From Gammaproteobacteria bacterium (GTDB lineage: Bacteria > Pseudomonadota > Gammaproteobacteria > Ga0077536): 64,000 nucleotides of DNA. Positions within the stretch are counted from its first letter, which is position 1; every line of letters begins with the position of its first letter. Below are positions 14,793 through 30,845 of this stretch, piece after piece. The stretch lies in NCBI GenBank assembly GCA_041984235.1, contig JBHIYN010000008.1, positions 220,673 to 284,672 of the forward strand, in the 5' to 3' direction. Position numbers and translations under genes: made by a program. The notes beneath the pieces were generated by a model, which saw only the letters and a list, made by a program, of their open reading frames with translations, was not told the origin of the DNA and did no database searches.

Positions 14793-14872
14793 CCCGGCCG
14801 CTGTATCAAGGGGGGCGACTCGCGTTCTGCGGGGGCGTTGATTCAGGCTTTTCAATTTCGATCCTATTCACG

Positions 14873-16621
14873 ATGAAAGCAACTAAAATCAATAAGTTAC
14901 TTCCTCTGCGCAACGCTTCTTTCGAGACCCTGACGGACGCACTGGAGTACGCCGCCGAAGGCGAGACCGGATACAACTTCTACGACGGGCGCGGCGAGTT
15001 GTTCGCCGTACTCAGTTACCGTGACCTGCGCGATCAGGCCCGCGCCCTGGGGCGCCGCCTGCGCGGACTCGGACTCAAGCGCGGTGCTCGCGTTGCCATC
15101 GTGGCCGAAACCGAGCCGATGTTTCATCGGTTTTTCTTCGCCTGCCAGTACGCCGGTTTCATTCCGGTATCGCTGCCGGCCGGCTTCCAGCTCGGCGCTC
15201 GCAAGGCCTACGTCGAACAGCTCGAGCGCATGCTCGACAGCTGCGGTGCCGACGTCGCCGTCGCGCCCGAATCACATGTCGGACTGCTGCGGCAGGCCGT
15301 CGAACGCCTCGACCTGGTCAAGGCGGGCACTCCGGAAGAGTTCGACCAGCTCGACGACAACGATCTCGAGCTCCAGCCGCTGGGCGCCGACGAGCCCGCC
15401 TACCTGCAGTACACCTCGGGCAGCACCCGTTTCCCGCGTGGTGTCGAGATCTCGCAGCACACCGTGATGACCAACCTGCGCGACATCGCCGTGCATGGCC
15501 TGCGCATCACCGAGCAGGATCGCATGGTGGCCTGGCTGCCGCTGTATCACGACATGGGACTGGTCGGCTTCGTGCTGTTGCCGCTCGGCAGCCAGCTTTC
15601 GGCGGACTACCTCAGCCCGCGTACCTTCGCCATGCGCCCGCGCCTGTGGCTGAAGGTGATCTCGGAGAATCGCGGCACCATTTCCTCCAGCCCGCCGTTC
15701 GGTTATGCGCTGTGCGCCAAGCGTCTGCGCCTGACCGACCAGGATCGGTACGACCTCAGCTCCTGGCGCGTCGCCTGTGTCGGCGCCGAGCGCATCCACC
15801 CGGAGCCCCTGCGCCAGTTCGCGCACGTACTGGAGCCGGCGAAGTTCGACGCGAATGCCTTCGTCGCCTGTTACGGCATGGCCGAATGCGCGCTCGCGAT
15901 CAGCTTCGCGGAACTCGGCAGCGGTATCGATTCGGTCAAGGTCGACAAGGAGAAAATGTCGGTCGAGGGCCGCGTCGAGATCGTCGCCGACAGCAATGGC
16001 GGCACCGATACCCTGACCTTCGTCGACTGCGGCAAGATTCTGCCGAGCTTCGAGTTGGCAATCCGCGATGACGACGGCCGCGACCTGCCCGACTACGAGT
16101 GCGGGCGTATCTGCCTGCGCGGTGACAGCGTGATGAACGGCTACTTCCAGAATCCCACGGCCACGGCCGAGGTCCTGTCCGACGACGGCTGGCTCGATAC
16201 CGGTGACATCGGCTATCGCGTCGGCGATCACGTAGTGGTCACGGCACGGCGCAAGGACGTCATCATCGTCAATGGCCGCAACATCTGGCCGCACGATCTC
16301 GAATACCTCGCCGAGAGCCTGCCGGGCGTACGCTTCGGCAACGTCTCCGCGTTCTCCTTCGCCGACGACAGCGGCGCAGACCAGGTCGTGATGGTGGTCG
16401 AGTCGCGCGAGACCAATCCCGCCAAGGCGCGCGAGTTGTGTGACCAGCTGCGTGCCCTGATCGTGGAGCACTTCGGCATCACCTGCCATATCGACCTGGT
16501 GCCGCCGCGAACCCTGCCGCGGACCTCTTCGGGCAAGCTGTCGCGCTCCAAGGCCAAGCAGGACTTCCTGGCGCGAGCGCAACAGGGCGTCGGCGGCATC
16601 ATCGCCGGCGCCAATGGATGA
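14873..16621 (+). CDS. Fatty acyl-AMP ligase / acyl-ACP synthetase (sphingolipid cluster)
   Basis: YLQYTSGSTRFPRGV, WLPLYHDMGLVG, CYGMAE, WLDTGDIG and PRTSSGKL. Confidence 0.9.
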   Translation: MKATKINKLLPLRNASFETLTDALEYAAEGETGYNFYDGRGELFAVLSYRDLRDQARALGRRLRGLGLKRGARVAIVAETEPMFHRFFFACQYAGFIPVSLPAGFQLGARKAYVEQLERMLDSCGADVAVAPESHVGLLRQAVERLDLVKAGTPEEFDQLDDNDLELQPLGADEPAYLQYTSGSTRFPRGVEISQHTVMTNLRDIAVHGLRITEQDRMVAWLPLYHDMGLVGFVLLPLGSQLSADYLSPRTFAMRPRLWLKVISENRGTISSSPPFGYALCAKRLRLTDQDRYDLSSWRVACVGAERIHPEPLRQFAHVLEPAKFDANAFVACYGMAECALAISFAELGSGIDSVKVDKEKMSVEGRVEIVADSNGGTDTLTFVDCGKILPSFELAIRDDDGRDLPDYECGRICLRGDSVMNGYFQNPTATAEVLSDDGWLDTGDIGYRVGDHVVVTARRKDVIIVNGRNIWPHDLEYLAESLPGVRFGNVSAFSFADDSGADQVVMVVESRETNPAKARELCDQLRALIVEHFGITCHIDLVPPRTLPRTSSGKLSRSKAKQDFLARAQQGVGGIIAGANG

Positions 16622-17564
16622 CGCGCGCTCCGGTATAGACCACGTCCTGCTGACCGGCGCCACCGGCTTCATCGGTGGCCACCTGCAGACCGCCCTGGCG
16701 GCCGCCGGGTACCGCGTCACCGCCCTGGTGCGGCCGGACTCCCCGCACCGGGACCGCGTCGCCAGCGGCGTCGGGGTGTGCGAAGCAGCGCTCGACGATG
16801 GCGCCGCGCTGACCGCGGCAGTCGCCGACGCCGACCTCGTCATCTACGCCGCGGGCGCGGTACGTGGCCGTGATACGGCTGACTTCGAGCCGGCCAATGT
16901 CGATGGTCTGCGCAACATCGTCAGCGCGGTGCGGCAGGCGCCGCGGCGTCCGGCGGTCGTCCTGATTTCGTCGCTGGCCGCGTCGCGCCCGGCGCTCTCC
17001 GCCTATGCCGCGAGCAAGGCCGCCGGCGAAGCCGTGCTGGCGGGGGTGACGGAGGTCGCCTGGACCATCCTGCGTCCGCCGGCGGTGTACGGACCCGGTG
17101 ATCGCGAGATGCGCCCGTTGTTCGAGGCCATGCGCCGCGGATTCGCATTGCGCGTCGGCCCGCGCGAACAGCGCCTGTCGCTGCTCTACGCGGTCGATCT
17201 CGCCGCCGCGGTATGCGCGGTGACCGGAGCACTGCCGCGCTGCCACGGACGGACCTTCGACCTCGACGACGGCCGCACAAACGGTTATGGCTGGCCGGAC
17301 ATCCTGGCCGCGGTCAGGGGGCAGCGGCCGGCACTGACCGTGCCGGTGCCACGCTGCCTGCTCATGATGCTGGCCGGCGCCAATCTCGCGCTGGCGCGCG
17401 TGCTGGGCTACCGCCCCATGCTCACGCCGGGCAAGGTGCGTGAACTTTCGGAGCCTGCCTGGCTCTGCAATAATCACGCGCTTTCCACGGCAACGGGTTG
17501 GGCGCCGCGCTTTACCCTAGAATCCGGAGTGCGCGCCACCTTTGCCAGCCATGGCCTGCCCTGA
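16614..17564 (+). CDS. NAD-dependent epimerase/dehydratase family; CerR-like ceramide reductase candidate
   Basis: TGATGFIG, SSLAA, YAASK (YxxxK) and RPPAVYGPGD; lies between the ligase and acp-spt, as in known ceramide clusters. Confidence 0.8.
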   Translation: MDDARSGIDHVLLTGATGFIGGHLQTALAAAGYRVTALVRPDSPHRDRVASGVGVCEAALDDGAALTAAVADADLVIYAAGAVRGRDTADFEPANVDGLRNIVSAVRQAPRRPAVVLISSLAASRPALSAYAASKAAGEAVLAGVTEVAWTILRPPAVYGPGDREMRPLFEAMRRGFALRVGPREQRLSLLYAVDLAAAVCAVTGALPRCHGRTFDLDDGRTNGYGWPDILAAVRGQRPALTVPVPRCLLMMLAGANLALARVLGYRPMLTPGKVRELSEPAWLCNNHALSTATGWAPRFTLESGVRATFASHGLP

Positions 17565-17810
17565 ATGACCGCACAAGACGCCATCGTCGAGACCCTGATC
17601 GCACTGCTGCAGAAGTCGCTGGACGCGCCGCGGGCGCTGTCGGCCGACACGGCGTTGATCGCCGATCTCGGCCTGGAGTCGATCCAGGTCATCGAGTACC
17701 TGTGCGAGGTCGAGGATCGCTTCGACCTCGCCATCAACGAGGACACCCTGGCGGACGTGCGCACCGTCGGCGACCTGGCCGCGGTGGTGCAGCGCCTGCA
17801 GGAGGCCTGA
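17565..17810 (+). CDS. Dedicated acyl carrier protein
   Basis: Acidic 81-aa protein with DLGLESIQ (Ppant Ser), EDRFDLAI and TVGDL. Confidence 0.9.
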   Translation: MTAQDAIVETLIALLQKSLDAPRALSADTALIADLGLESIQVIEYLCEVEDRFDLAINEDTLADVRTVGDLAAVVQRLQEA

Positions 17811-17816
17811 TCCGCG

Positions 17817-19016: not shown

Positions 19017-19030
19017 GCGGCGCGAAAGAC

Positions 19031-20347
19031 TCAGCGGCTGCTGAGGGCGCGCCGCACGATCAAGGCGAGCGCCCCGAGCATCAGCGTATTCAACACGAGG
19101 TGAGCTACCCCGGGTGCGCTGGCGCCGATACGAGGCGCCAGGGCGACGAAAGCGCACACGTAGATCACCGCACCGGCGCCCTGCGCGGCGAGCGCGGTGC
19201 CGGCGTGCCCCAGCGTGTACGCGGCGGGGCGCAGCGGCGCCGCGGCCAGTTCCATGCCGGCCGCGGCGACGAGCCAGGTCAGCAGGGTCGCCGCCGGCAC
19301 GTAGTCGGCTCCCAGGGTTAGCCCGAGCAGGGCCTTGCCGAACCACCAGGCGACCAGGATCACTGCCGTCGCCGGCAGCGCGAGCAGGCTGACGACGCTC
19401 ACGATGACCTCGGCGAACGCGCCCTCACCCCGGTGCAGCATGCGGGCCAGGTCGGGGAAAATCGCCTGGCGTACCAGCAGGGCCGGCTTCGACACGACGT
19501 TGGCAAATTCGCGCGCGATGCGGAACAGGGCCGCGCCCTCGTTGCCGAGCAGGGCGCCGGCGAGCAGCGTGCCCAGTGCCTTGGGCACGAGATCGAGCGA
19601 GCTCTGCCAGTAGATCACATGCAGGAAATGGCCGATGCCGGGATGGCGGGCGCGCAGCGCGGGCAGATCGATCGGCGCGCGCCACTGCGGCGCCGGGATG
19701 CGGGCGCGCGCTTCGCGCCACCCGAAGACCTGCTCGGCGAGGTACTGGCCCGCCTGGGAAACCGCCCACACTGCGGCTACGGTGGTCGGTGTCGCCGTTC
19801 CCGACAGGGTAAGCGCAAGGACCCCGGCCAGTCTCAGGCCGTTGCCGAGGAGCAGGGCCGCGCTCAGCAGGTAGAAGCGATCGAAGCTGCGCAGTATCCC
19901 GCTGGCCGTGCCCTGGCCAGCGGTCAGCAGCAGCAGGCAATAGGCCATGGCGGTGTGCTCGGTCGCCGCGGTCCACACGTCGAAGGCCGTCATCAGACGC
20001 ACGCCTGCCAGTGCCACCAGCGTGCCGGTTACAGCGGAGAGCACGTCGATGACCAGGCCCGCGCGCAGCAGGCGGGCGAGCGCCGCGTGATCGCGATCCT
20101 CGATCAGCGGAACCCCGTAGCGCACGATCGCCTCGAACGGCTTCAGGTTGATCAGTCCGCGCACGGTGAGCACGTAGGCGTGCAGCAGCGCGACCAGGCC
20201 GAAACCGGCCGGACCGAGGACGCGGGCCGCGATCAGGGTCGACGACAAGGCCAGCACGGCGCCGATGGCACGCCCGCCGAGGAGCATGGCGAAATTGCGC
20301 ACGACGCGATCGAGCGCCTGGCGTGCGGCGCTGCGGCTCGCGGTCAC
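19031..20347 (-). CDS. MOP/Wzx-like (polysaccharide biosynthesis family) flippase
   Basis: Many hydrophobic segments and an N-terminal RNFAMLLGG...ARVLGPAGFG typical of Wzx. GTG 20347 overlaps the upstream TGA; ATG 20377 is an alternative start. Confidence 0.8.
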   Translation of the reverse strand: MTASRSAARQALDRVVRNFAMLLGGRAIGAVLALSSTLIAARVLGPAGFGLVALLHAYVLTVRGLINLKPFEAIVRYGVPLIEDRDHAALARLLRAGLVIDVLSAVTGTLVALAGVRLMTAFDVWTAATEHTAMAYCLLLLTAGQGTASGILRSFDRFYLLSAALLLGNGLRLAGVLALTLSGTATPTTVAAVWAVSQAGQYLAEQVFGWREARARIPAPQWRAPIDLPALRARHPGIGHFLHVIYWQSSLDLVPKALGTLLAGALLGNEGAALFRIAREFANVVSKPALLVRQAIFPDLARMLHRGEGAFAEVIVSVVSLLALPATAVILVAWWFGKALLGLTLGADYVPAATLLTWLVAAAGMELAAAPLRPAAYTLGHAGTALAAQGAGAVIYVCAFVALAPRIGASAPGVAHLVLNTLMLGALALIVRRALSSR

Positions 20348-21240
20348 CGGAAACCGCCGCGTCGATACAGGCGCCATAACAGGCCCCAGGCAAACAGCAG
20401 GGGGTGCCGGCGCTGCAACGGGGTCGGTTCCTCGCGTACGCCGCTGTGCCGCTCGACCTTCCACACGACGTAGTCGAGCGGATCGTTGAACGTGAAGGCG
20501 GCCTTGAGCAGCCGTGCCACCGACAGTGCCTTGCCGTACGCGCGCCGCAGCCACCAGCGGCGCCGGGCGCGCGCCTGCGCTCCGCCCGCGGCGCTGCGCC
20601 GCCACCGGGCGGGTCCGTCGGCTGCCAGCCCGGTGGCCGGCGCCAGTCGTGCGGTCATCGTCTGCAGCTCCTCGGCGTAACGCCGCGCCAGCTCGTCGCC
20701 GCGGCCGGGCGGCTCGCTGCGCAGCTCGCAGGCGTAGGTCGCGGCGAACGCGTGGCGCCACAGCTCCGTCGTGCTGAACGTCTCGTCGAGCAGGTCGGCG
20801 ACCTCTGTGATCATGCGTTGTGCCGCGCGCTCGCGCAGTGTCTCCAGGCGCGTTACGATCGCCGGCGAGCGGGCCTGAACGACGACGAAAGGCTGCGCGA
20901 AGCGCGCCCAGAAGTAGCCGTGGAAATCATGCGCCACCGCGTCCTCGAGGCCGGCCAGCGTCACCGTTGCGTACTTGGCTGCGACGCGTTCGCCGCCGGT
21001 GTCGAGGACCAGGTGGTAGACGTTCGGCGGCAACAGGCGATTAGACAGCGCGGCGAGGCGCGAGCCGAGCGCGTCGTAGTCGTCGAGCAGGACGTAGAAG
21101 TCGAGCACCGTGTCACGGCTGCCGCGCAGCCACGAGCCGTACAACAGCACGGCTACCATGCGGTCGCCGAAGCGTTCGGCTAAGGCCTTGGCGAAACGCT
21201 GCGGCAGGTCTTCGTCGGCGGTTGCCGCGGGATCAGTCAT
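20344..21240 (-). CDS. Nucleotidyltransferase-fold protein, Tam41-like (CpgA-like candidate cytidylyltransferase)
   Basis: AVLLYGS..R....LDFYVLLDDY (GS/DxD-type NTase), LLPPNVY, YFWARFAQP and DYVVWKVERHSG. Confidence 0.6.
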   Translation of the reverse strand: MTDPAATADEDLPQRFAKALAERFGDRMVAVLLYGSWLRGSRDTVLDFYVLLDDYDALGSRLAALSNRLLPPNVYHLVLDTGGERVAAKYATVTLAGLEDAVAHDFHGYFWARFAQPFVVVQARSPAIVTRLETLRERAAQRMITEVADLLDETFSTTELWRHAFAATYACELRSEPPGRGDELARRYAEELQTMTARLAPATGLAADGPARWRRSAAGGAQARARRRWWLRRAYGKALSVARLLKAAFTFNDPLDYVVWKVERHSGVREEPTPLQRRHPLLFAWGLLWRLYRRGGFR

Positions 21241-22423
21241 AGGCCCGGCGCGTGCCGGCGAAGGTCGTGAATGCGCGCGGGTGCTCAGCCGCGGCTTGCC
21301 GCGGATCGATCAGCCACGATTGCAGCGGTGCGCCGCGCAGCCGCAGCGCGGCTGCATAGACCAGCCGCAGCGCCATGATCGCGCTGCTGAGCACGGTCCA
21401 CGCGGCGACGCCCGCGTAGCCCAGGTCCGGGCGCCCGGCGAACGTGGCGATGGTGAGGATGATCAGGCACGGGTTGCGTCGCGCGGTGACGAGCCGGAAG
21501 TAGGCATCGAACGGGCGCCACGCGAACATGCTGCAATGGCCCAGCGTATGGAACGCGGCTTCGAGCAGGCGCCCGGCGATGTAGCCCGTGACGATCGCCA
21601 GTGCCAGTTCGCCGACGGTATAACCGCAGACCAGGCCATCCATGCCCAGGCCCAGGCCGACACCCCAGTACACGTACCAGAACGGCGGGTGCACGATGTC
21701 CATGCCGTGATCCAGCCAGTGCCCGAGGCGGCTGCTGGTCACGGTGACCCGGGCCAGCTTGCCGTCGACGGTGTCGAGCAGGGTCATCAGCCAGCCGCAG
21801 GCGAGTCCCGCCAGGTAGCCACCGGTGGCGAACAGGCCGGTTGCGATGAGTACCAGTAGCAGGCCGGTCAGCGTGACCATGTTCGGCGTGATTCCGAGCC
21901 GCGCGCACCATCCGACGAGGTAGCGTGCGGGCCGTGGCCACCACCACTTGGTCACGAGATCGGTGATGCCCTTGTAGGCGTTGCCGTAGAGCAGGGACTC
22001 GAGGGCCGCTTCGTCATTGTCGGCATAGGCGCGCAGGAGCGGCGCAGCCGATTTTCGCAGGTTGCGATCGAACGCGGCCAGGTCGGCCGGGCTGAGCACC
22101 GTGATGCCGCGCGGAACGGTGGCACTGTCGGCGCCGACCAGGCCCGCGATCGTGTCACCGGGACCGACCGCGGCCGCGACCTGCTGCGTCTCGGGACACA
22201 CCAGCACGGCGCGGTCGTGGCCGAGCAGCGCACTGAACGTGCGCGGCTCGAACAGGAAATCGGCCGCGACGGCGAGTAGCGGCGCGGCGCCGGGCGCACG
22301 CGTGGCGCCGGTGTCGATGTCGTCGATACCCACGCTGCGCAGCTGGCGCGTGATGCGTTCCACCGAGCTCAGCCCCCAGAGGCGGTGGGGACGCTCACCG
22401 ACGATCATCGCGGACTTCGTCAT
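21233..22423 (-). CDS. CDP-alcohol phosphatidyltransferase with N-terminal extension (CpgC-like)
   Basis: ITPNMVT and the signature DTVDGKLAR...G..LDHGMD. Confidence 0.9.
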   Translation of the reverse strand: MTKSAMIVGERPHRLWGLSSVERITRQLRSVGIDDIDTGATRAPGAAPLLAVAADFLFEPRTFSALLGHDRAVLVCPETQQVAAAVGPGDTIAGLVGADSATVPRGITVLSPADLAAFDRNLRKSAAPLLRAYADNDEAALESLLYGNAYKGITDLVTKWWWPRPARYLVGWCARLGITPNMVTLTGLLLVLIATGLFATGGYLAGLACGWLMTLLDTVDGKLARVTVTSSRLGHWLDHGMDIVHPPFWYVYWGVGLGLGMDGLVCGYTVGELALAIVTGYIAGRLLEAAFHTLGHCSMFAWRPFDAYFRLVTARRNPCLIILTIATFAGRPDLGYAGVAAWTVLSSAIMALRLVYAAALRLRGAPLQSWLIDPRQAAAEHPRAFTTFAGTRRAYD

Positions 22424-22514
22424 GCTACCATTCGATCTCTTGCGGTTTACGAAAAAAGCGCGTGATTATAGTAAGTTACCGGTCAGCCGGCAAAGTCTGA
22501 CCGAGGCCGCCGGC

Positions 22515-23426: not shown

Positions 23427-24465
23427 GCGCAACGGCGAGCACGACCAGTGCCGGAGCCAGCGCGGTCGGCGCCGGGGCGAGCTCCAGCAGCAGGGCGAGG
23501 TGGCTGGCGACCTGCTCGAAGAGGTAGAAACCGATGCCGATGGCACCACCGACGAGCGTGCGGAATCCGCCCGACCTTGTGCGTACCGAGGCCAGCGCCA
23601 GCGGCACGCCGAGCAGACCCATGGCGAGCAGGGCAAGGGGCAGACTGACCTGCTGCCAGAACAGGACCTGTTGCTCTCGCGTGTCCAGGCCGGCACCGCG
23701 ACTCTGATCGAGGTAGCGGTAGAGATCGAGTGCGGAAACGGCATCGGCCGGGCTGACGAGGGTCGCGAGCTGGTCCGGGCTGAGGAAGCTCGGCCACTCG
23801 AGCGTTGCCACCTGTCGTTGCAGAACGCGTTCGCCGTCCAGCACTTTCTCCTCCACGTCCTGCAGCAACCAGGTGCCGGCACTGACGATGTCGGCGCGGT
23901 CGGCGCGCAGCAGGTGTCGCAACCGGGCGTCCTCGTCGAGCTCGTAGATCTCCACGTTGCGCGGAATGCGCCCGAAATCGACCGCGCCGACGCGCAGCAG
24001 TCGCGCACCGCTGCGACTCCAGAACTCGGTGCTGCCGAGGGCGGTCTGCTCCAGCGTACGGGTACGGAACTCCTGCGCGCGGCGCTCCGCCATCGGCACC
24101 ACCGCCAGTTGAACGGCTGCGGCGAGCAGCGCGAGGGCCGTCGCCAGCACGAGCACGATGCCGCCCATGTGCCAGACCGACATTCCCGCCGCGCGCAGGG
24201 CGACGAGCTCACGCTGGTTGGCCAGCAGACCCAGCCCGAGCACCGAGCCCAGCAACAGGCTGACCGGCAGCAGCTCGAGCATGCGGGCCGGCGTGGTCAG
24301 CACCAGCACCGACAGGGCGTCGGCGACCGTGAATGCGCCGGTGCCGACGTCCTCCAGCGTTTCCGCGAGGTCGATGAAGCTGAACAGCGCGAGCAGCACG
24401 AGCAGCGCCAGGCCCGCAGCCCTGAGCACCGTCCAGGCAAGGTAACGGGCGGCGATACCGCTCAT
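23401..24465 (-). CDS. lptG: LptG-family permease paralogue
   Basis: YjgP/YjgQ family: LLGSVLGLGLLANQRELVALRAAGMS. Start at ATG 24465 overlaps the lptF stop. Confidence 0.85.
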   Translation of the reverse strand: MSGIAARYLAWTVLRAAGLALLVLLALFSFIDLAETLEDVGTGAFTVADALSVLVLTTPARMLELLPVSLLLGSVLGLGLLANQRELVALRAAGMSVWHMGGIVLVLATALALLAAAVQLAVVPMAERRAQEFRTRTLEQTALGSTEFWSRSGARLLRVGAVDFGRIPRNVEIYELDEDARLRHLLRADRADIVSAGTWLLQDVEEKVLDGERVLQRQVATLEWPSFLSPDQLATLVSPADAVSALDLYRYLDQSRGAGLDTREQQVLFWQQVSLPLALLAMGLLGVPLALASVRTRSGGFRTLVGGAIGIGFYLFEQVASHLALLLELAPAPTALAPALVVLAVALIALRRVA

Positions 24466-25514
24466 GTCAATCGACCGCACCGGGTCAGTGTCAACACGGC
24501 CAGTGCCGCAGCGAGCAGTGCCGGGGCCCACCACAGGGAAGGCAGGGTCTGCTGCTCGACCCAGGTGCGCCCGACGCCCACCAGGTTGAAATACAGCGCG
24601 TAGATACCGATCGCCGCGGGTACGCGCGCATAACGCGCCTGGCGCGGTCGGTGATCGGTCAGTGCCATCGCGGTCAAGGCGAGCAGCAGCGTGGAGACGG
24701 GCGTCGACAGGCGCCATTGCAGCTCGGCGCGATCGTCGGCGAGCTCCGACAGTATCAGGGCCGCGGTGTCGGCGGACTTGGTCCGGTACTCGTGATCGAT
24801 CGGTTTCAGTGCGTCCAGTGACAGGCTCAGCGTGCCGAAGCGACCGAGAAAGTCCGCCTCGTCGCGGACATTGCGGAATATGCTCGCCTCGTTCAGAACG
24901 AGGCGGTGGCTGCGTGGCGTCGCGAACGGCTCCAGCACCCCAGAGGGCGCCGTGATGATCTCGGTATCGTTCCCGTTGCGGTTGCGAATGAAGATCCCGG
25001 TCAGGCGACCGCCGTCGCGCGCGATGCGGTCGACATAGACGGCGCGTTCGCCATCGTCGTAAAGGTAGAAGCGTCCCGCCTTTATTCGATCGAGCTCCGA
25101 GGAGGCGCGCGCCGCGTCACGCAGGGTGAACAGCTCGGAGTAGGCCCACGGCCGCACGCTCAGCGAGAGGGCTGCGACCAGTGCTGCGAGCAGCACGCTC
25201 GCGACCAGCAGCGGCCGTTGCAGGCGCCCACGCCGCAATCCCCCGGCGCGCATGGCGGTGAGCTCGCTGTTGGCATTGAGGCGGCCGAAGCCGATAATGA
25301 TGCCGAAATACAGGGCCAGCGGCAGCAGCACCTCCAGCGCAATGACGCCTTTCAGCAGGGTCAGGCGCAGGACTTCGCCGCCATCGAGCAGGCCGCTGGC
25401 GGCGTCGGTCAGGAAGCGCGTCAGGCTGTAGGCAAGGAAGATGGCGACCAGTACCATGGCGACCGCGGCGAAGCTCGCGCCGATTTGTCGAAGCAGGTAA
25501 CGGTCGATTAACAC
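24462..25514 (-). CDS. lptF: LptF-family permease paralogue
   Basis: MLIDRYL, LLPLALYFG...GRLNANSELTAMRAGG and AELQWRLSTP. Confidence 0.85.
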   Translation of the reverse strand: MLIDRYLLRQIGASFAAVAMVLVAIFLAYSLTRFLTDAASGLLDGGEVLRLTLLKGVIALEVLLPLALYFGIIIGFGRLNANSELTAMRAGGLRRGRLQRPLLVASVLLAALVAALSLSVRPWAYSELFTLRDAARASSELDRIKAGRFYLYDDGERAVYVDRIARDGGRLTGIFIRNRNGNDTEIITAPSGVLEPFATPRSHRLVLNEASIFRNVRDEADFLGRFGTLSLSLDALKPIDHEYRTKSADTAALILSELADDRAELQWRLSTPVSTLLLALTAMALTDHRPRQARYARVPAAIGIYALYFNLVGVGRTWVEQQTLPSLWWAPALLAAALAVLTLTRCGRLT

Positions 25515-25587
25515 GATGCAAAGTGCGGGACGTTCACGCCGTCCGCGGCAGGTCGGACCCGGCTATCATCGATGCGCCCGTCGCACG

Positions 25588-26094
25588 GTGCAACAGCGCA
25601 TCGCGACGGCGTGCGCCGCTTGGCTGTGCCTGGCCGCCACGGCTCCCGCGCACAGCGATACCCCGCCGCTGGAGCGGGCCGCCGACGTCGTCTTCATTCG
25701 CGCGGAACGCGCCGTGCAAGCCGCCGATCGCGGATCGTTCGTGCTCGACGGGGGCCTGCGGCTGGCCGGCGAGCGCTGGGTGATTACCGCCGATCACGCG
25801 GTCGTCAGCGGTCGCCTGCAAGACCCCGACCGTATCGAGGTCAGCGGTGCGCCGGCGCGCATGACCCTGCAGCGCGAAACGCGGATGACTCCGCTGCGTG
25901 CAAGCTCGCAACACCTGGTCTTCGAACCGCGGGCCGAGCTCGTGCGGCTGCGTGGCGCCGCCACGGTAGACGATGGCGAGCAGTCCATCAGCAGCGAAGC
26001 GATCCGCTACCTGCTGAACGACGATACGTTTGCGGCCGGCTCCGACGATGGCGGCCGCGTGCGCGTCGTCACGCGGCCACGCGCAGGTCGCTGA
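25588..26094 (+). CDS. LptA/OstA-like periplasmic beta-jellyroll protein
   Basis: Signal-peptide-like N-terminus, ITADHA, SGAPARM, LRGAATV...ISSEAIRY and a C-terminal GRVRVV. GTG 25588 is preferred over ATG 25516, which abuts the lptF start. Confidence 0.7.
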   Translation: MQQRIATACAAWLCLAATAPAHSDTPPLERAADVVFIRAERAVQAADRGSFVLDGGLRLAGERWVITADHAVVSGRLQDPDRIEVSGAPARMTLQRETRMTPLRASSQHLVFEPRAELVRLRGAATVDDGEQSISSEAIRYLLNDDTFAAGSDDGGRVRVVTRPRAGR

Positions 26095-26101
26095 CGAATA
26101 G

Positions 26102-26542: not shown

Positions 26543-26555
26543 GCGTGTTCTCCAA

Positions 26556-27314
26556 TCAGGCCAGGTCCGACTGTGGCTGCCCGGCCGGCTGGTGCCAGCC
26601 GTCGACCACCACCGCGGCATGCGCGAGATCCTCGCGGTCGTCGATCTCGCACCAGCTCAGGCCGTCGATGGGGCAGGTCGCGACGATGGACTCACCGGCG
26701 AGCGCGTCGATTGCCGACAAGTACCACTGCTTGAGCCCGGTGCCGTAGCGCATCATGTGTTCGACCTGGCGGCGGAAGCGCGCGGCGCCGTTGGCGTCGA
26801 AGTGAATCATGCCGATGGACTCGCCACTGACACCGGTGCGATCGAGCTGCTTGCCGATGCGGCGCAGGCGTCCGTTCTCGACTACGACCTTCATGTCGTC
26901 ATCGTCGTAAACCGCCTTGCTGTCCGTCACCAGCGTGATTGGGGCTGACCCGCGTGCAGCGAGCAGGCGCTGCAGGATGGCTGCTTCGAACAGGGTGTCG
27001 CCGTTGATGATGACGAACGGCGCGTCCATCTCGTGCCGTGCGACCCAGCAGGTACCCAGGTTGTCGCTCTGCGCATAGAACGGATTGTAGAGCGCGCGCG
27101 TCGGCACCTGGCGGTTGGCGGCAACGATGCGGTCGATGTGATCCGCGCCGAAGCCGGTAACCACCACGACTTCGTCGATCGCGCACTGGCTGATCTCGTT
27201 GATCTGCCATTCGAGCACGCTGATACGGCCGACCGGCAGCGCCGCCTTGGGTTGCTCGGCGGTCAGGGGAAGCAGGCGGCGCCCCTGTCCGGCACTCAGT
27301 ATGATCGCTTTCAT
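26556..27314 (-). CDS. LicC/phosphocholine cytidylyltransferase-like NTP transferase (CpgD-like)
   Basis: MKAIILSAGQGRRL.P...PK, YNPFY, INGDTLF, DDDDMKV, GESIG and WCEIDD. Confidence 0.85.
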   Translation of the reverse strand: MKAIILSAGQGRRLLPLTAEQPKAALPVGRISVLEWQINEISQCAIDEVVVVTGFGADHIDRIVAANRQVPTRALYNPFYAQSDNLGTCWVARHEMDAPFVIINGDTLFEAAILQRLLAARGSAPITLVTDSKAVYDDDDMKVVVENGRLRRIGKQLDRTGVSGESIGMIHFDANGAARFRRQVEHMMRYGTGLKQWYLSAIDALAGESIVATCPIDGLSWCEIDDREDLAHAAVVVDGWHQPAGQPQSDLA

Positions 27315-27439
27315 CCGTTCGTCCGGGCTGCTCGCCGCCCGTGAAAGGCGCGCGACTCTAGCACGTTTGCCCGCGCGGTTCGACCGCACTGCCGCGTGAC
27401 AGGGGAGATGCCGGCGGTGGTCGCTTCGGCGCGGTGCGC

Positions 27440-28210
27440 TCAGTCGTCCGCCGCGGCACCGCGGCGTTCGGCGAGGCGCCGATTCCAGTCGGCCAGATTG
27501 CGCAGGGGGTCGCGCACGTAGTGGGTCGCCTGCATCAGGCGCAGAATGGCGCGATTGAAGCGCGTGCCCAGCGCGTCCATGGGGCGGTCGATGTCAAGGA
27601 ACAGCACCGCGCGGTACTCCCGCGTGTCGTTCAGCACCTCGTGCTCGTAGGTGTCATCGAACAGCAGGCACTCGCCTTCGCGCCAGGTGTTGATGGTCTG
27701 GTCGACGCGCAGCCAGCATCGCTCGCGCTCGGCCGGCACGCGCAGTCCGAGATGGCAGCGCACCAGCGCACGGGTCGGGCCGCGGTGCGCCGGGATGTGG
27801 TAGCCGGGTGCGAGGATCGAGAACCAGGCGTTCTGCAGGCCGGGCAGGCCGGCGAGCAGCGCGGCAGTGTGCGGACATTCGCGGCAGTTGGGTTCGACCG
27901 CCTGACCGAAGATGTACAGCGCGTAGGTCTTCCAGTTCGAACCCTTGGAAATGCGGGCCTGGTCGGGCGAGATCTGGTGGAATGCCGGAATGTCTTCGGG
28001 GTGCTGCCAGACCTGGTCGAACTCTGCGCGCACTTGTGGCCAGGCGGCTTCGAGGCGTGGCACCCAGTCGAAGGTGGCGTTATCGAGCACCGGTGTGGTC
28101 GGGATGAGCGAGTGACGCGCCTGGAAATCGCCGATGGCGCGCAGGAAACGCTTGCCCGCGCGATGCACGATACCGCGCAGTGCACCGCGCAGCGGGCCGC
28201 GCTCAGCCAT
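27440..28210 (-). CDS. Aspartyl/asparaginyl beta-hydroxylase (AspH/LpxO-family) Fe(II)/2-oxoglutarate dioxygenase
   Basis: FSILAPG.HIPAHRGPT...RCHLGL, WREGECLLFDDTYEHEV.N and RAVLFLD. Confidence 0.88.
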   Translation of the reverse strand: MAERGPLRGALRGIVHRAGKRFLRAIGDFQARHSLIPTTPVLDNATFDWVPRLEAAWPQVRAEFDQVWQHPEDIPAFHQISPDQARISKGSNWKTYALYIFGQAVEPNCRECPHTAALLAGLPGLQNAWFSILAPGYHIPAHRGPTRALVRCHLGLRVPAERERCWLRVDQTINTWREGECLLFDDTYEHEVLNDTREYRAVLFLDIDRPMDALGTRFNRAILRLMQATHYVRDPLRNLADWNRRLAERRGAAADD

Positions 28211-28997
28211 GACCAACGACCTCGCGGGCGAGGGCGAGGTCGGCGGCCGAGTCGACGTCGACCGCGGCGCGGGCGTGTTCCAGGCAGACGAACCCGATCG
28301 CCGCGCCGCTGCGCGCCGACAGCGCCGCGAACGCCTGCGCCGTGCTCAGCCGGCCAGCGAGGTATCGCAGCAGCACGGCAGGTCCGATGCGCGCGGCCAG
28401 TCGCCACGGCCGTTTGCGCTGCGCTTCGCAGGCGCGCCAGAAGGCGAGCGCCCGGCGTGCCAGCGCGGTGCGCAGCAGGAACAGGTTGCTGCCGCACCAG
28501 GTCGCGTCGCTGAAGCGCAGGCGGGTGCGGCGTGATGCGGGAAAGGCGCGCTGGACGGTGCCGTAGGGCACGAGGCCGACCACGAAGTCCGCCTCGCTCT
28601 CGCCGGCCGCAGTGCAGAACGCGTCGACGATGGCGGGGGTCAGCAGCGCGTGGTCCCCGGCGGTCAGCAGCAGCGGGACTTCGTCCAGCTTCTCGACACC
28701 GGCGAGGGCGCTGGCGGAAGGGCCGTCTGCGGGAGCCAGCCATTCGAAATCGCCACGGTCGAGCAGTGCGCGCACGCGCGCATCCGTTTGCGGCAGCGGT
28801 GCGCCCGGTCCGACCAGGACCCCGCCGGCGATGGCGTGGCTGGCGCGCAGTGCCGCGACGACGCGCTCCAGGCAGGTCGCTCCCCCGACTTCGGCGAGCA
28901 CGCCCGCCGCCAGCCCCAGGCTGCGCGCCAGCGCGTTGCCGCCCGGGCGTTCGCCGGCCAGCACCACCGCGCGCATGGTCGGGCGCGGAGCGCTCAC
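28203..28997 (-). CDS. MobA-like NTP transferase family protein
   Basis: AVVLAGER, GPSAS, LLTAGDHALL, SRRTRLRFSD..WCGSNLF and AVDVDS..DL. GTG overlaps the upstream TGA. Confidence 0.8.
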   Translation of the reverse strand: MSAPRPTMRAVVLAGERPGGNALARSLGLAAGVLAEVGGATCLERVVAALRASHAIAGGVLVGPGAPLPQTDARVRALLDRGDFEWLAPADGPSASALAGVEKLDEVPLLLTAGDHALLTPAIVDAFCTAAGESEADFVVGLVPYGTVQRAFPASRRTRLRFSDATWCGSNLFLLRTALARRALAFWRACEAQRKRPWRLAARIGPAVLLRYLAGRLSTAQAFAALSARSGAAIGFVCLEHARAAVDVDSAADLALAREVVGHG

Positions 28998-30130
28998 GCC
29001 AGTGCTTTCTCGTACACGCGATAGCGTTTCGACTGGCGACCGCCGAGCGTGTCGATGATGTTCTTCATCGCCGCGTTGCTTTCCAGGATCCAGGACATCT
29101 CCACGTCCTCTATGCCCTTGCCGACGCCGGGTGCGCGCAGTGCCTGCACCACCGACAGAGCGAGTCCCGGACCCAGACGGGTGTGGTGGAAGCGCCGCCG
29201 CACGCCCATCAGCGGTATGCGCGCGGTGCTCGGGTAGCCCAGCTTGAGGCGGGCCAGCAGTCGCAGCCAGCCGGTCGGCCACAGGCGGCCGTCGAGATCG
29301 GCGATGATCTCGTTGACGTTCGGCAGCAGCACGATGAAGGCCACGGGCTCGCCGCGCATCTCCGCGATCTGGATGAAGTCGGGCGGCATCAGCATCAGCA
29401 TCTCCTGCCCGATGGTGCGGAATTCGCGCTTTGTGAACGGCACGAAGCCCCAGTTGTCGGCCCACGCGTCGTTGAAGATGTCACGCAGGATATCGAGGTC
29501 GCGATCGCGGTTTTTCGGATCGAGCGGACGGATGCTGACCGTGCGGCTAAGGCGCTCGAAGAGCGCCGCCATGACCGGCGGCGGATCGAAGCGCGCCTTG
29601 ATCAGGTAGGCAAACAGGTCGACAGCCTTGGCATAGCCGCACGCTTCGATCGCCGCACCGTAATACGGCAGGGCGTGCGTCATCATGAAATAAGGCGGCG
29701 TATCGAAGCCGTCGACCAGCAGACCGACTTCCTGGTTGACGTTGAAGCTCAGCGGCCCGCGCACGCGGGTCATGCCGCGCGCGCTCAGCCAGCTTTCGGC
29801 GCTGTCGAACAGTGCCGCGAACACCTCGGCGTCGTCGGCCGCCTCGATGAAGCCGAAGAACCCGGTGGCGTCAGCGTAGCGGTCGAGGTGCAGCTGGTCG
29901 ACCTGCGCGCTGATGCGTCCGACCGGGGTATCGCCACGGTACGCGACCCAGCCCTGCCACTGGAGATGTTCGAACACCGGCTGCTTCGGCGAGAGCGCCT
30001 GTTTGCGTTCGAACAGCAGCGGCGGCACCCAGTTCGGATCGTCTCCGTACAGCGACCACGGCACGCGGACGAAATCGTCCAGACGGTGGCGGTCGTCGGC
30101 CGGGCGGATGCTGAGTACGCCTGTGTTCAT
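28994..30130 (-). CDS. Tandem GNAT-fold N-acyltransferase; bacterial ceramide synthase (bCerS) candidate
   Basis: Y.DDPNWVPPL, GRISAQVD, GFFGF, RGPLSFNVNQEVGLLVDGFDTPP..MM.H, FNDAWADNWGFVP and EMSWILESN; gene context agrees. Confidence 0.8.
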   Translation of the reverse strand: MNTGVLSIRPADDRHRLDDFVRVPWSLYGDDPNWVPPLLFERKQALSPKQPVFEHLQWQGWVAYRGDTPVGRISAQVDQLHLDRYADATGFFGFIEAADDAEVFAALFDSAESWLSARGMTRVRGPLSFNVNQEVGLLVDGFDTPPYFMMTHALPYYGAAIEACGYAKAVDLFAYLIKARFDPPPVMAALFERLSRTVSIRPLDPKNRDRDLDILRDIFNDAWADNWGFVPFTKREFRTIGQEMLMLMPPDFIQIAEMRGEPVAFIVLLPNVNEIIADLDGRLWPTGWLRLLARLKLGYPSTARIPLMGVRRRFHHTRLGPGLALSVVQALRAPGVGKGIEDVEMSWILESNAAMKNIIDTLGGRQSKRYRVYEKALA

Positions 30131-30772: not shown

Positions 30773-30845
30773 AGGGCTGGCGCCTTTGTCGCGCCGCTGC
30801 GACCGTGGAATAATGGGCAGCCTGACCCGACCAGGTAACCGAGCC

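What the first reader, a model, noticed from the sequence alone, without database searches (positions are those of the whole stretch)
14873..30130. Complete ~15-kb sphingolipid synthesis, decoration and export cluster in a probable Gammaproteobacterium
Seen: 16 contiguous genes, namely acyl-AMP ligase, SDR reductase, ACP, Spt-like enzyme, flippase, Tam41-like NTase, CDP-alcohol phosphotransferase, metallophosphoesterase, LptG/LptF/LptA paralogues, HIT, LicC-like NTase, AspH-type hydroxylase, MobA-like NTase and a double GNAT. Established: Caulobacter makes ceramide with Spt, bCerS and CerR plus a dedicated ACP and ligase, and adds phosphoglycerate with CpgA-D. Inference: this organism makes modified outer-membrane sphingolipids. 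The gene set differs from the Caulobacter model as I recall it: there is a 2OG hydroxylase and no soluble ceramide kinase. The product may therefore be an undescribed lipid in a class where sphingolipids are little studied.
Basis: partly seen in the sequence, partly recalled or inferred. Interest (0 to 1): 0.85.

Follow-up and report, generated by a model that had tools for sequence, protein, structure and literature searches.

The report
Sphingolipid synthesis and export gene cluster
This is a real 16-gene cluster for making, decorating and exporting an outer-membrane sphingolipid; it is a relative of the known Caulobacter cluster, but it lacks the ceramide kinase and adds a lipid hydroxylase.

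Summary
The Tam41-like and double-GNAT calls, which no sequence library made, were confirmed by predicted fold.

The cluster has the same families in nearly the same order as the published 17-gene Caulobacter locus CC_1152-CC_1168. That locus covers ceramide synthesis, ceramide (di)phosphoglycerate head-group genes, a flippase and second copies of LptF/LptG. Papers of 2022-2026 describe those parts and report contiguous orthologous clusters in Gammaproteobacteria.

Three differences are real:
- No DAGK_cat (CpgB-type) kinase anywhere in this 100%-complete genome.
- An LpxO/OlsC-family hydroxylase inside the cluster.
- A secreted LptA-like protein where Caulobacter has anchored LptC2.

This layout is not unique to the window. 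Of 80 related loci, 62-66 keep the head-group/Lpt core. Only 9 of the 36 near-complete clusters hold a kinase gene.

Most likely product: a hydroxylated, anionic phosphosphingolipid like ceramide phosphoglycerate, exported by LptF2G2. The route to the first phosphate is open.

Verdict: new variant of a known kind, moderate interest. The scan had noted an spt/lptG-like junction in another genome (e1-116761).

The parts
14873..16621 (+). g01 fatty acyl-AMP ligase, AasR-like acyl-ACP synthetase (582 aa)
   Evidence: NF006624 scores 737 bits against a cut-off of 600. It is 44% identical to the ligase of the E. coli spt cluster and 42-47% identical to the gene at the CC_1165 position in alpha-type clusters.
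16614..17564 (+). g02 NAD-dependent epimerase/SDR, CerR-like reductase (316 aa)
   Evidence: Pfam Epimerase scores 78.9 bits. It is 38% identical to the E. coli cluster gene and 32-39% identical to genes in other-class clusters. It overlaps g01 by 8 bases.
17565..17810 (+). g03 dedicated acyl carrier protein, AcpR-like (81 aa)
   Evidence: PP-binding scores 42 bits. It lies directly upstream of spt, as described for Rhodobacteria in the abstract and passages of PMC9386255.
17817..19016 (+). g04 serine palmitoyltransferase (399 aa)
   Evidence: The NF047599 equivalog scores 579.6 bits against a cut-off of 500. The best solved relatives are Sphingomonas SPTs at 412 bits, against Kbl at 210 and BioF at 186, and the FSKS lysine motif is kept. 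In the tree it sits inside a 41-row Spt clade.
19031..20377 (-). g05 MOP/Wzx-type flippase candidate (about 448 aa; start uncertain)
   Evidence: Polysacc_synt scores 18.3 bits, below its cut-off. It has homologues in the E. coli cluster, at the CC_1166 position of L115 and in 39 of 80 related loci.
20344..21240 (-). g06 Tam41-like lipid-phosphate cytidylyltransferase candidate, at the CpgC/CC_1161 position (298 aa)
   Evidence: There is no sequence-family hit. The predicted fold matches Tam41 best. The nearest Atlas clusters are named phosphatidate cytidylyltransferase. Homologues occur in 66 of 80 related loci, and it is 36-42% identical to the gene between spt and the kinase in three alpha-type clusters.
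21233..22423 (-). g07 CDP-alcohol phosphotransferase with an N-terminal cytoplasmic domain, at the CpgA/CC_1159 position (396 aa)
   Evidence: PF01066 scores 34.6 bits. The full motif D217..D220 G221..A224 R225..G234..D238..D242 is invariant in 14 of 14 sequences. The profile matches AF2299 (4o6m) over residues 13-244, E 1.1e-10.
22515..23426 (+). g08 metallophosphoesterase, at the CC_1158 position (about 303 aa)
   Evidence: Metallophos scores 53.7 bits. It is present in 64 of 80 related loci and lies next to the CDP-alcohol transferase in alpha-type clusters.
23401..24465 (-). g09 LptG paralogue, LptG2 (354 aa)
   Evidence: TIGR04408 scores 294 bits against a cut-off of 240. A second LptG lies on contig C12 (376.8 bits) and is 34% identical.
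24462..25514 (-). g10 LptF paralogue, LptF2 (350 aa)
   Evidence: TIGR04407 scores 284 bits against a cut-off of 230. A second LptF lies on contig C23 (271 bits) and is 28% identical.
25516..26094 (+). g11 secreted LptA-like (OstA-fold) protein (about 170-192 aa)
   Evidence: PF03968 scores 31.5 bits and TIGR03002 scores 51 bits, below its cut-off of 71.7. The window protein and the homologues printed (22) mostly carry an N-terminal hydrophobic stretch ending in an Ala-X-Ala-type site, read by eye. The LptC family PF06835 hits only contig C12.
26102..26542 (-). g12 HIT-family protein (about 146 aa)
   Evidence: PF01230 scores 24 bits. PDB sequence hits are HIT proteins. The motif NVHFHVLPR is read. 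Homologues at 50-57% identity sit between the phosphoesterase and LptF2 in 2 of 3 alpha-type clusters.
26556..27314 (-). g13 LicC/IMPCT-like cytidylyltransferase, CpgD-like (252 aa)
   Evidence: NTP_transf_3 scores 50 bits and NTP_transferase 40 bits. The best PDB sequence hit is LicC 1jyk, E 3.6e-11. NCBIfam matches the inositol-1-phosphate cytidylyltransferase part of NF041135. CpgD is described as IMPCT-like in PMC12275187.
27440..28210 (-). g14 Fe/2OG lipid acyl hydroxylase of the LpxO/OlsC family (256 aa)
   Evidence: Asp_Arg_Hydrox scores 172 bits. OlsC scores 209 bits (cut-off 450) and LpxO 118.5 bits (cut-off 500). It is the only member of the family in the genome. It keeps the same position in 25 of 80 related loci.
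28203..28976 (-). g15 MobA-like nucleotidyltransferase, at the CC_1153 position (257 aa)
   Evidence: NTP_transf_3 scores 39 bits. The only PDB sequence hit is 2dpw. Homologues lie next to bCerS in other-class clusters at 37-41% identity.
28994..30130 (-). g16 tandem-GNAT N-acyltransferase, bCerS/YghO family (378 aa)
   Evidence: The predicted fold matches tandem GNATs. It is 48% identical to E. coli YghO over its full length, E 7e-122. PMC9386255 lists yghO with CC_1154 as the acyltransferase required for dihydroceramide.

Best explanation
The 16 genes are a homologue of the Caulobacter phosphosphingolipid locus. Together they build a ceramide, give it an anionic phospho head group and send it to the outer membrane.

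Ceramide core (inferred from homology with characterised enzymes):
- The ligase g01 loads a fatty acid on the dedicated ACP g03.
- Spt g04 condenses acyl-ACP with serine to 3-oxosphinganine.
- The tandem-GNAT g16 N-acylates it and the SDR g02 reduces the keto group. This order of steps is recalled from Stankeviciute et al. 2022 and was not read here.

Decoration (inferred):
- The LpxO/OlsC-type enzyme g14 hydroxylates an acyl chain.
- The CpgD-like g13 makes a CDP-activated donor, most likely CDP-glycerate.
- The AF2299-like CDP-alcohol phosphotransferase g07 transfers the phospho-alcohol to the lipid.
- The Tam41-like g06 activates a lipid phosphate with CTP.
- g15, g08 and g12 are accessory nucleotide or phosphoester enzymes.

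Because no CpgB-type kinase exists in the genome, the first phosphate has two possible sources. Either the housekeeping DgkA phosphorylates ceramide, or g07 transfers the phospho-alcohol directly onto ceramide.

Export (inferred from the Caulobacter work): the flippase g05 flips the lipid, LptF2G2 (g10, g09) extracts it using the housekeeping LptB, and the secreted LptA-like g11 passes it on towards LptD.

The confidence of 0.8 is for the statement that this is a sphingolipid synthesis, phospho-head-group and Lpt-type export cluster homologous to the Caulobacter locus. For the specific product (a hydroxylated ceramide phosphoglycerate-type lipid) I would give about 0.5.
For: Spt identity: NCBIfam equivalog above its cut-off, best solved relatives are SPTs, and the tree places it in an Spt clade.

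bCerS: tandem-GNAT fold and 48% identity to YghO, which PMC9386255 lists with CC_1154.

Tam41 fold of g06. PMC11324152 section 13 says CC_1161 carries a CDP-DAG synthase domain.

g07 has the complete catalytic motif and AF2299 architecture.

g13 is LicC/IMPCT-like. Purified CpgD of that type makes CDP-glycerate (PMC12275187).

Two full LptF/LptG sets exist in the genome. LptF2/G2 are needed once anionic sphingolipid is made in Caulobacter and they bind LptB (preprint).

Collinearity: three clusters from another class show FAAL-SDR-ACP-Spt-Tam41-like-DAGK-CDP-OH transferase-phosphoesterase-(HIT)-LptF2-LptG2-bCerS-NTase. That is the published order CC_1165 to CC_1152.

Conservation across 80 related loci: g06 in 66, phosphoesterase in 64, LptG2 in 64, LptF2 in 62, Spt in 45 and bCerS in 34. 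Many loci are cut by contig ends, so these are lower bounds. Gene order is the same in all 11 loci printed.

Other checks:
- LpxC, LptA, LptC and LptD are present elsewhere, so the lipid would coexist with LPS.
- DgkA is present in the own genome and in 5 of 5 other genomes with kinase-less clusters that were examined.
- No inositol-1-phosphate synthase was found.
Against: No lipid was measured and no enzyme was assayed.

Named Caulobacter sequences could not be fetched. The link to CpgA, CpgC and CpgD therefore rests on family, fold, gene order and unnamed other-class clusters, not on reciprocal best hits.

The CpgB-type kinase that Caulobacter needs for any phospho-ceramide is absent from the genome, so the pathway cannot be identical.

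DgkA lies 4.4 kb upstream, but its neighbour is lexA, as in E. coli (recalled). Its nearness is probably ordinary synteny. DgkA also occurs in 3 of 5 genomes whose clusters do carry a kinase, so its presence does not discriminate.

The substrate of g13 is unknown.

The hydroxylase scores below the OlsC and LpxO equivalog cut-offs. The genome also holds one Acetyltransf_5 gene, so an aminolipid substrate is not excluded.

The flippase call rests on a sub-threshold Pfam score.
Confidence: 0.8

Rival explanations
1. The ceramide core and export are as above, but the head group is not phosphoglycerate. The LicC/IMPCT-like g13 would activate another phospho-alcohol, such as glycerol phosphate, phosphoethanolamine or phosphocholine. 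The CDP-alcohol phosphotransferase g07 would then transfer it directly to ceramide without any kinase, as choline/ethanolamine phosphotransferases do with diacylglycerol.
For: No DAGK_cat kinase exists in this genome or in two of the nearest relatives.

g07's profile also matches choline/ethanolamine phosphotransferases, which use a CDP-alcohol donor and a lipid acceptor.

g13's best solved relative by sequence is the phosphocholine enzyme LicC.

Related clusters differ in accessory genes: a GMC oxidoreductase is present in 25 of 80 loci and a kinase in 23 of 80. That fits head-group diversity.
Against: The Tam41-like, CofC/MobA-like and phosphoesterase genes, which are specific to the Caulobacter phosphoglycerate pathway, are all kept and in the same order. 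A simple one-step transfer would not need them.

Inositol is unlikely, since the genome has no inositol-1-phosphate synthase.
Confidence: 0.3
2. The LptF/LptG/LptA-like genes are ordinary LPS export genes that merely lie next to a sphingolipid operon. The '16-gene cluster' would then be several unrelated operons.
For: Both permeases pass the NCBIfam equivalog cut-offs for LPS LptF and LptG. The genes lie in six transcription units on both strands.
Against: A second LptF and a second LptG exist on other contigs. The LptG copy on C12 scores higher on the LptG model (376.8 against 294 bits), while the LptF copy on C23 scores slightly lower than g10 (271 against 284 bits).

The canonical lptC-lptA pair is on contig C12.

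The Lpt pair sits inside the cluster, at the same position, in 62-64 of 80 loci from several classes.

The same arrangement is shown experimentally to matter for sphingolipids in Caulobacter.
Confidence: 0.03
3. The PLP enzyme is a BioF/Kbl/CqsA-type enzyme and the cluster makes a different amino lipid or signal, such as a sulfonolipid made from cysteate.
For: The family is broad. Cysteate-C-fatty acyltransferase (28eh) and CqsA-type models also give hits.
Against: The Spt equivalog scores 579.6 bits and is above its cut-off. bioF (312), Kbl (289) and the CqsA-type model (193.5) are all below theirs.

Solved SPTs score 412 bits against 168 bits for the cysteate enzyme.

The only other family member in the genome lies on a very long branch.

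The ACP, ligase and bCerS partners match the sphingolipid system.
Confidence: 0.03

Closest known systems
Caulobacter crescentus phosphosphingolipid locus CC_1152-CC_1168 (ccna_01210-01226): ceramide synthesis, CpgA-D, flippase, LptF2/G2/C2
   Same: The two loci share the same protein families: AasR ligase, CerR-type SDR, AcpR, Spt, bCerS, a Tam41-like protein, a CDP-alcohol phosphotransferase, a metallophosphoesterase, two nucleotidyltransferases, a flippase and a second LptF/LptG pair. The order phosphoesterase, CDP-OH transferase, Tam41-like, Spt, ACP, SDR, ligase is shared.
   Different: No CpgB (DAGK_cat) kinase is present in the cluster or the genome. The flippase lies between the Tam41-like gene and spt. 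An LpxO/OlsC-family hydroxylase is inside the cluster, whereas Caulobacter is reported to use a DesA-type enzyme encoded elsewhere. A secreted LptA-like protein takes the place of membrane-anchored LptC2. Named Caulobacter sequences were not compared directly.
Contiguous clusters reported in Azotobacter vinelandii and Pseudomonas luteola (PMC11324152, section 9)
   Same: These are gammaproteobacterial, contiguous clusters, said to hold at least 13 of the 17 Caulobacter genes.
   Different: Those clusters are reported to lack the CC_1158 phosphoesterase and the CC_1166 flippase, both of which are present here. Since only four orthologues are reported missing, they retain CC_1160 (the kinase). 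Their gene lists are in supplementary tables that I could not open, and neither genome was among the 80 loci fetched.
E. coli yghO-spt-lptG-lptF cluster (strains such as BL21 and UTI89)
   Same: The FAAL-SDR-ACP-Spt operon matches at 44, 38, 36 and 53% identity. YghO is 48% identical to g16. There are an Lpt permease pair and a flippase-like gene.
   Different: The E. coli cluster has no Tam41-like gene, CDP-alcohol transferase, phosphoesterase, nucleotidyltransferase, HIT or hydroxylase gene. It therefore has no comparable head-group module.
LPS transport machine LptB2FGC-LptA-LptDE
   Same: g09 and g10 pass the LptG and LptF equivalog cut-offs, and g11 has the LptA/LptD_N domain.
   Different: They are second copies, 28-34% identical to the genome's other LptF and LptG. 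The cluster holds no lptB, lptC, lptD or lptE.
LpxO (lipid A) and OlsC (ornithine lipid) acyl 2-hydroxylases
   Same: g14 belongs to the same Pfam family, Asp_Arg_Hydrox, at 172 bits.
   Different: It scores below both equivalog cut-offs. It is embedded in a sphingolipid cluster at a conserved position. One full-text search for sphingolipid, ceramide, LpxO and OlsC listed no paper tying this family to bacterial ceramide (listing only).

Membership tests
Serine palmitoyltransferase (alpha-oxoamine synthase subfamily) | Scores above the curated Spt equivalog cut-off and below those of BioF, Kbl and HemA | tested here: met
   NF047599 scores 579.6 against a cut-off of 500. bioF scores 311.8 (cut-off 426.45), Kbl 288.6 (cut-off 460) and ALAS 227.7 (cut-off 338.55).
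Serine palmitoyltransferase (alpha-oxoamine synthase subfamily) | PLP-binding lysine in the conserved T-F-S-K-S stretch; closest solved relatives are SPTs | tested here: met
   The alignment to 2x8u shows GTFSKS conserved. SPTs score 412 bits against 210 bits for Kbl. That this lysine binds PLP is recalled.
Serine palmitoyltransferase (alpha-oxoamine synthase subfamily) | Condenses L-serine with an acyl thioester | not testable with these tools
   This needs an enzyme assay.
AasR/AcpR acyl-ACP supply for rhodobacterial Spt | A dedicated ACP gene directly upstream of spt, with an acyl-AMP ligase gene in the same operon | tested here: met
   The gene order is g01-g02-g03-g04 with gaps of -8, 0 and 6 bases. 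The families are given. The rule is stated in the abstract of PMC9386255.
Bacterial ceramide synthase (bCerS / YghO / CC_1154) | Homology to the acyltransferase required for dihydroceramide, with a GNAT-type fold | tested here: met
   g16 is 48% identical to E. coli YghO over 374 residues. It is 39-48% identical to genes in the sampled clusters from other families and another class. The fold is a tandem GNAT. yghO is listed with CC_1154 in PMC9386255.
CpgC / Tam41-type lipid-phosphate cytidylyltransferase | Tam41 fold (a nucleotidyltransferase domain plus a winged-helix/helical domain) | tested here: met
   The Foldseek top five hits are all Tam41, E 9e-8 to 7e-7, TM 0.51-0.58. Pfam Tam41_Mmp37 itself gave no hit.
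CpgC / Tam41-type lipid-phosphate cytidylyltransferase | Orthology to Caulobacter CpgC (CC_1161) | tested here: inconclusive
   g06 is 36-42% identical to the gene between spt and the kinase in three clusters of another class that have the published gene order. No named Caulobacter sequence was available.
CDP-alcohol phosphotransferase (CpgA / AF2299-like) | Motif D-x2-D-G-x2-A-R-x8-G-x3-D-x3-D | tested here: met
   D217, D220, G221, A224, R225, G234, D238 and D242 are invariant in 14 of 14 aligned sequences. The motif definition is recalled.
CpgB ceramide kinase (DAGK_cat / LCB5) | A DAGK_cat domain protein in the cluster or the genome | tested here: not met
   PF00781 gives 0 matches in the 100%-complete genome, while the Caulobacter control rings. 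tblastn with a cluster-borne kinase finds none in the window.
CpgD phosphoglycerate cytidylyltransferase (COG1213, IMPCT-like) | IMPCT/LicC-type nucleotidyltransferase domain | tested here: met
   The best PDB sequence hit is LicC 1jyk, E 3.6e-11. NF041135 cytidylyltransferase part, model positions 1-214, scores 60.5 bits.
CpgD phosphoglycerate cytidylyltransferase (COG1213, IMPCT-like) | Uses CTP and phosphoglycerate | not testable with these tools
   This needs an assay like that in PMC12275187.
Sphingolipid LptF2/LptG2 | A second LptF/LptG pair encoded inside the sphingolipid locus, beside a housekeeping pair | tested here: met
   There are four LptF_LptG genes in the genome: two in the window, one on C12 and one on C23.
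Sphingolipid LptC2 | A membrane-anchored LptC-family protein in the locus | tested here: not met
   PF06835 hits only C12. g11 matches LptA/LptD_N and has a signal-peptide-like N-terminus, as do most of the 22 homologues printed, read by eye.
LpxO / OlsC lipid acyl 2-hydroxylases | Scores above the equivalog cut-off | tested here: not met
   OlsC scores 209 against a cut-off of 450, and LpxO scores 118.5 against 500. Only the family-level Pfam criterion is met.

The most novel reading that the evidence does not exclude
Most gammaproteobacterial clusters of this type may make their anionic sphingolipid without any ceramide kinase. The AF2299-like CDP-alcohol phosphotransferase would put the first phospho-alcohol (phosphoglycerate) directly on a 2-hydroxylated ceramide. 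A dedicated secreted LptA paralogue, rather than an anchored LptC2, would then hand the lipid from LptF2G2 to the outer membrane. If so, natural kinase-less clusters such as this one would show what CpgA and the Tam41-like CpgC really do, a question the Caulobacter work leaves open.
Probability: 0.25. Interest if true: 0.6.

Novelty: new variant of a known kind. Interest (0 to 1): 0.4.

Why it matters
Bacterial phosphosphingolipids can partly stand in for LPS. In Caulobacter they are the colistin target (passages of PMC9393093).

This window shows that the whole Caulobacter-type tool kit occurs as one compact, conserved cluster in a large group of mostly uncultured Gammaproteobacteria. At least 592 species-level genomes encode the cluster's transferase.

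The common form of the cluster lacks the kinase that starts the pathway in Caulobacter. It carries a different hydroxylase and an LptA-like component. That gives experimenters natural variants for working out the unresolved CpgA and CpgC steps and the periplasmic leg of sphingolipid export.

It does not reveal a new kind of system.

Tried and rejected
- Named Caulobacter, A. vinelandii or P. luteola sequences could not be obtained.
S1 Text and S2 Table of PMC11324152 may state what CC_1157 is and list the gammaproteobacterial orthologues.
- Pfam, NCBIfam and PDB sequence searches gave nothing for g06 and g16. Fold prediction resolved both.
- Inositol phosphoceramide was considered, because g07 and g13 hit DIPP-synthase-type models. 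I rejected it as unlikely, since the genome has no inositol-1-phosphate synthase.
- DgkA as a cluster member was considered, because it lies in the window. I rejected it as a member: it is separated from the cluster by the isocitrate dehydrogenase, lexA and imuA/imuB-like genes, and dgkA-lexA adjacency is ordinary (recalled).
- The DgkA presence test does not discriminate: 6 of 6 genomes with kinase-less clusters have it (own genome included), against 3 of 5 genomes whose clusters carry a kinase.
- The careful tree search did not finish, so a quick tree with SH-aLRT support was used.
- Earlier scan notes by place and by sequence gave nothing relevant.

Full report
**What is there**

The window has about 69% G+C. 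Codon-position G+C and ORF listing resolve 16 genes between 14873 and 30130. Gaps run from -34 to +125 bases and 98.8% of the span is coding. The genes form six transcription units:
- g01-g04 on the + strand.
- g07-g06-g05 on the - strand.
- g08 on the + strand.
- g10-g09 on the - strand.
- g11 on the + strand.
- g16-g15-g14-g13-g12 on the - strand.

The window is contig C34:220673-284672 of a 5.3-Mb genome in 35 contigs, 100% complete.

**Family assignments**

Pfam and NCBIfam confirm these:
- An acyl-AMP ligase (NF006624, 737 bits, cut-off 600).
- An epimerase-type SDR.
- An ACP.
- A serine palmitoyltransferase (NF047599, 579.6 bits, cut-off 500; bioF, Kbl and ALAS are all below their cut-offs).
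- A CDP-alcohol phosphotransferase.
- A metallophosphoesterase.
- LptG and LptF, both above their equivalog cut-offs.
- An LptA/LptD_N-domain protein.
- A HIT protein.
- Two NTP_transf_3 nucleotidyltransferases.
- An Asp_Arg_Hydrox enzyme (172 bits). It scores 209 on the OlsC model and 118.5 on LpxO, both below their cut-offs.

Further support for individual genes:
- Spt. The best solved relatives are Sphingomonas SPTs (412 bits), against Kbl (210) and BioF (186), and the FSKS lysine stretch is kept. The genome has only one other member of the family, at 32% identity. In a quick tree it lies on a very long branch, while the window's Spt sits in a 41-row clade with SH-aLRT 100.
- The 298-aa protein (g06). 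No sequence library recognises it. Its model (pLDDT 91.4) matches Tam41 CDP-DAG synthases first. The nearest Atlas clusters are named phosphatidate cytidylyltransferase.
- The 378-aa protein (g16). Its model (pLDDT 90.7) is a tandem GNAT. The protein is 48% identical to E. coli YghO.
- The transferase g07. Its full catalytic motif is invariant in 14 of 14 homologues. Its profile matches AF2299 from residue 13, so the N-terminal cytoplasmic domain is shared too.
- g13. Its best solved relative by sequence is LicC.

**Is it a unit?**

Nearly all are uncultured Gammaproteobacteria, with some from beta, delta, Nitrospirota and Methylomirabilota.

tblastn of the 16 window proteins against these 80 loci gave the following counts:

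| Gene | Loci with a match (of 80) |
|---|---|
| g06 Tam41-like | 66 |
| Phosphoesterase | 64 |
| LptG2 | 64 |
| LptF2 | 62 |
| NT1 | 53 |
| Spt | 45 |
| NT2 | 43 |
| SDR | 41 |
| Ligase | 40 |
| ACP | 39 |
| Flippase | 39 |
| bCerS | 34 |
| LptA-like | 33 |
| HIT | 25 |
| Hydroxylase | 25 |

Many loci are cut short by contig ends, so these are lower bounds. Three loci hold all 16 genes and 36 hold 12 or more.

The order is the same in all 11 loci printed: bCerS, NT2, (kinase), hydroxylase, (GMC oxidoreductase), NT1, HIT, LptA-like, LptF2, LptG2, phosphoesterase, CDP-OH transferase, Tam41-like, flippase, Spt, ACP, SDR, ligase.

Within the window's own GTDB family, 15 of 24 other genomes have a g06 homologue, and the window's genome is the only one of its genus.

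Among the loci printed or tabulated, L016, L021, L036 and L058 share the flanks on both sides, an ImuB-like gene on one and a ChrR-cupin ORF plus RNase R on the other. Others share them in part. The cluster is therefore inherited vertically in this lineage.

**Comparison with what is known**

PMC11324152 (sections 9 and 13 read in full, passages of section 8) describes 17 Caulobacter genes, CC_1152-CC_1168:
- Six genes for ceramide diphosphoglycerate: the CC_1160 kinase, CC_1161 with a CDP-DAG-synthase domain, the CC_1159 CDP-alcohol transferase, the CC_1158 phosphoesterase, the CofC-like CC_1153 and the LicC-like CC_1152.
- A flippase, CC_1166.
- LptC2, LptF2 and LptG2.

The paper reports contiguous orthologous clusters in A. 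vinelandii and P. luteola.

PMC12275187 (first quarter of the text, through the early Results, and passages) shows that purified CpgD (CC_1152) makes CDP-glycerate. [quoted passage not shown]

The preprint 10.64898/2026.04.12.717747 (parts 1-2 read) shows that lptF2, lptG2 and lptC2 can be deleted only when anionic sphingolipid is not made. It also shows that LptF2 and LptG2 bind each other and LptB.

I could not fetch named Caulobacter DNA. Instead I sampled 400 further genomes of the phylum (401 searched with the window's own genome) for Spt (27 of 401 matched) and fetched 20 kb around ten of the hits.

Three clusters from another class have exactly the published order: ligase, SDR, ACP, Spt, Tam41-like, DAGK, CDP-OH transferase, phosphoesterase, (HIT), LptF2, LptG2, bCerS, NTase. 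One of them has a flippase upstream of the ligase. Identities to the window's proteins are 36-42% for g06, 39-42% for g07 and 45-46% for bCerS in the two clusters whose fetched stretch reaches it. The window's cluster is therefore a homologue of that locus.

The E. coli yghO-spt-lptGF cluster shares only the ceramide and export parts.

**What differs**

1. No CpgB-type kinase.
   - PF00781 has no match anywhere in the genome, while the Caulobacter control rings.
   - Two of four near relatives checked also lack it genome-wide.
   - By tblastn a kinase gene is present in 23 of 80 loci and in 9 of the 36 near-complete clusters, where it lies between NT2 and the hydroxylase. In the window those two genes overlap by 8 bases.
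2. The hydroxylase.
   - It is the genome's only Asp_Arg_Hydrox gene.
   - It is present at the same position in 24 of the 36 near-complete clusters.
   - Caulobacter is reported to use a DesA-type enzyme encoded elsewhere.
3. The LptA-like protein g11.
   - The window protein and most of the 22 homologues printed have a short hydrophobic N-terminus ending in an Ala-X-Ala-type site, read by eye.
   - The LptC family hits only the canonical lptC next to lptA on contig C12.
   - It therefore looks like a secreted LptA paralogue rather than LptC2.
4. The flippase lies between the Tam41-like gene and spt.

The HIT gene is not a difference. It sits where CC_1157 would be in two of the three other-class clusters, at 50-57% identity. 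The main text of PMC11324152 calls CC_1157 probably unrelated and does not name its family. The supplement that may name it was closed.

**Mechanism**

The ceramide core follows from homology with characterised enzymes, and so does Lpt-type export. The genome also makes LPS, since LpxC, LptA, LptC and LptD are present, so the lipid would share the outer membrane with it.

For the head group, the conserved set of CpgD-like NTase, AF2299-like transferase, Tam41-like enzyme, MobA-like NTase and phosphoesterase points to a phosphoglycerate-type anionic head group.

The first phosphate is the open step. There are two options:
- DgkA supplies ceramide-1-phosphate. It is present once in the genome, at window 10009-10311, and in 5 of 5 other genomes with kinase-less clusters. 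That E. coli DgkA phosphorylates ceramide is recalled, not tested.
- g07 transfers the phospho-alcohol directly to ceramide.

Inositol is unlikely, because the genome has no inositol-1-phosphate synthase.

**Verdict**

This is a new variant of a known, recently described system, and it is widespread in uncultured Gammaproteobacteria. It is of moderate interest, chiefly as a natural kinase-less form that could help to resolve the CpgA and CpgC steps.

Noticed in passing
window 9985-10530 (-), domain hit at 10009-10311: This is the genome's only DgkA-type lipid kinase (PF01219, 106.5 bits). It lies 4.4 kb upstream of the cluster and is separated from it by an isocitrate dehydrogenase gene and a lexA plus imuA/imuB-like cassette. 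In the relative G001 it also lies about 2.6 kb beyond the ImuB-like gene.
   Followed up: partly
window about 30320-30748 (+): A ChrR-cupin domain ORF (PF12973, 99 bits) lies divergent from bCerS. The same ORF sits beside bCerS in 8 of the 80 loci, all close relatives. It may be a regulator of the cluster or may only be a conserved neighbour.
   Followed up: partly
related loci, e.g. L018:3156-4823 and L018:1396-2415: Many related clusters carry a GMC-family FAD oxidoreductase between the hydroxylase and NT1 (25 of 80 loci). Some also carry a DAGK_cat kinase between NT2 and the hydroxylase (23 of 80). The window has neither. The oxidoreductase is not part of the published Caulobacter gene set as read here.
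   Followed up: partly
L111:13781-14203, L115:15007-15381: In clusters from another class, the HIT gene is the best conserved accessory gene (50-57% identity, against 36-42% for the Tam41-like gene). It occupies the position of CC_1157, which the literature treats as unrelated to the pathway.
   Followed up: partly
window 14873-16621 against L010, L015, L016, L021, L036, L058: The acyl-AMP ligase is 83-86% identical in these relatives, while most other cluster genes in them are 45-65% identical, with the Spt, ACP, NT1, hydroxylase and bCerS genes in between at 57-81%. This is unusually strong conservation for one member of the cluster.
   Followed up: no
window 30696-33762 (+): A TPR protein whose C-terminal end resembles a PEP-CTERM-associated outer-membrane protein, and a protein with a LapA-like retention module, lie between the cluster and RNase R (33982-36246). 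In relatives RNase R follows the ChrR-cupin ORF directly, so this stretch looks like an insertion.
   Followed up: no
G000 C12:274619-275659 and C23:244638-245666: The genome's other LptG and LptF genes lie on different contigs and are therefore not adjacent, unlike the pair in the window.
   Followed up: no
L089 (E. coli NZ_CP195804.1) 13961-26934: The E. coli spt cluster also holds a YtfJ-family gene, two hypothetical genes and two dTMP-kinase-like genes (yghS, yghT) beside lptG/lptF. None of these has a counterpart in the window.
   Followed up: no
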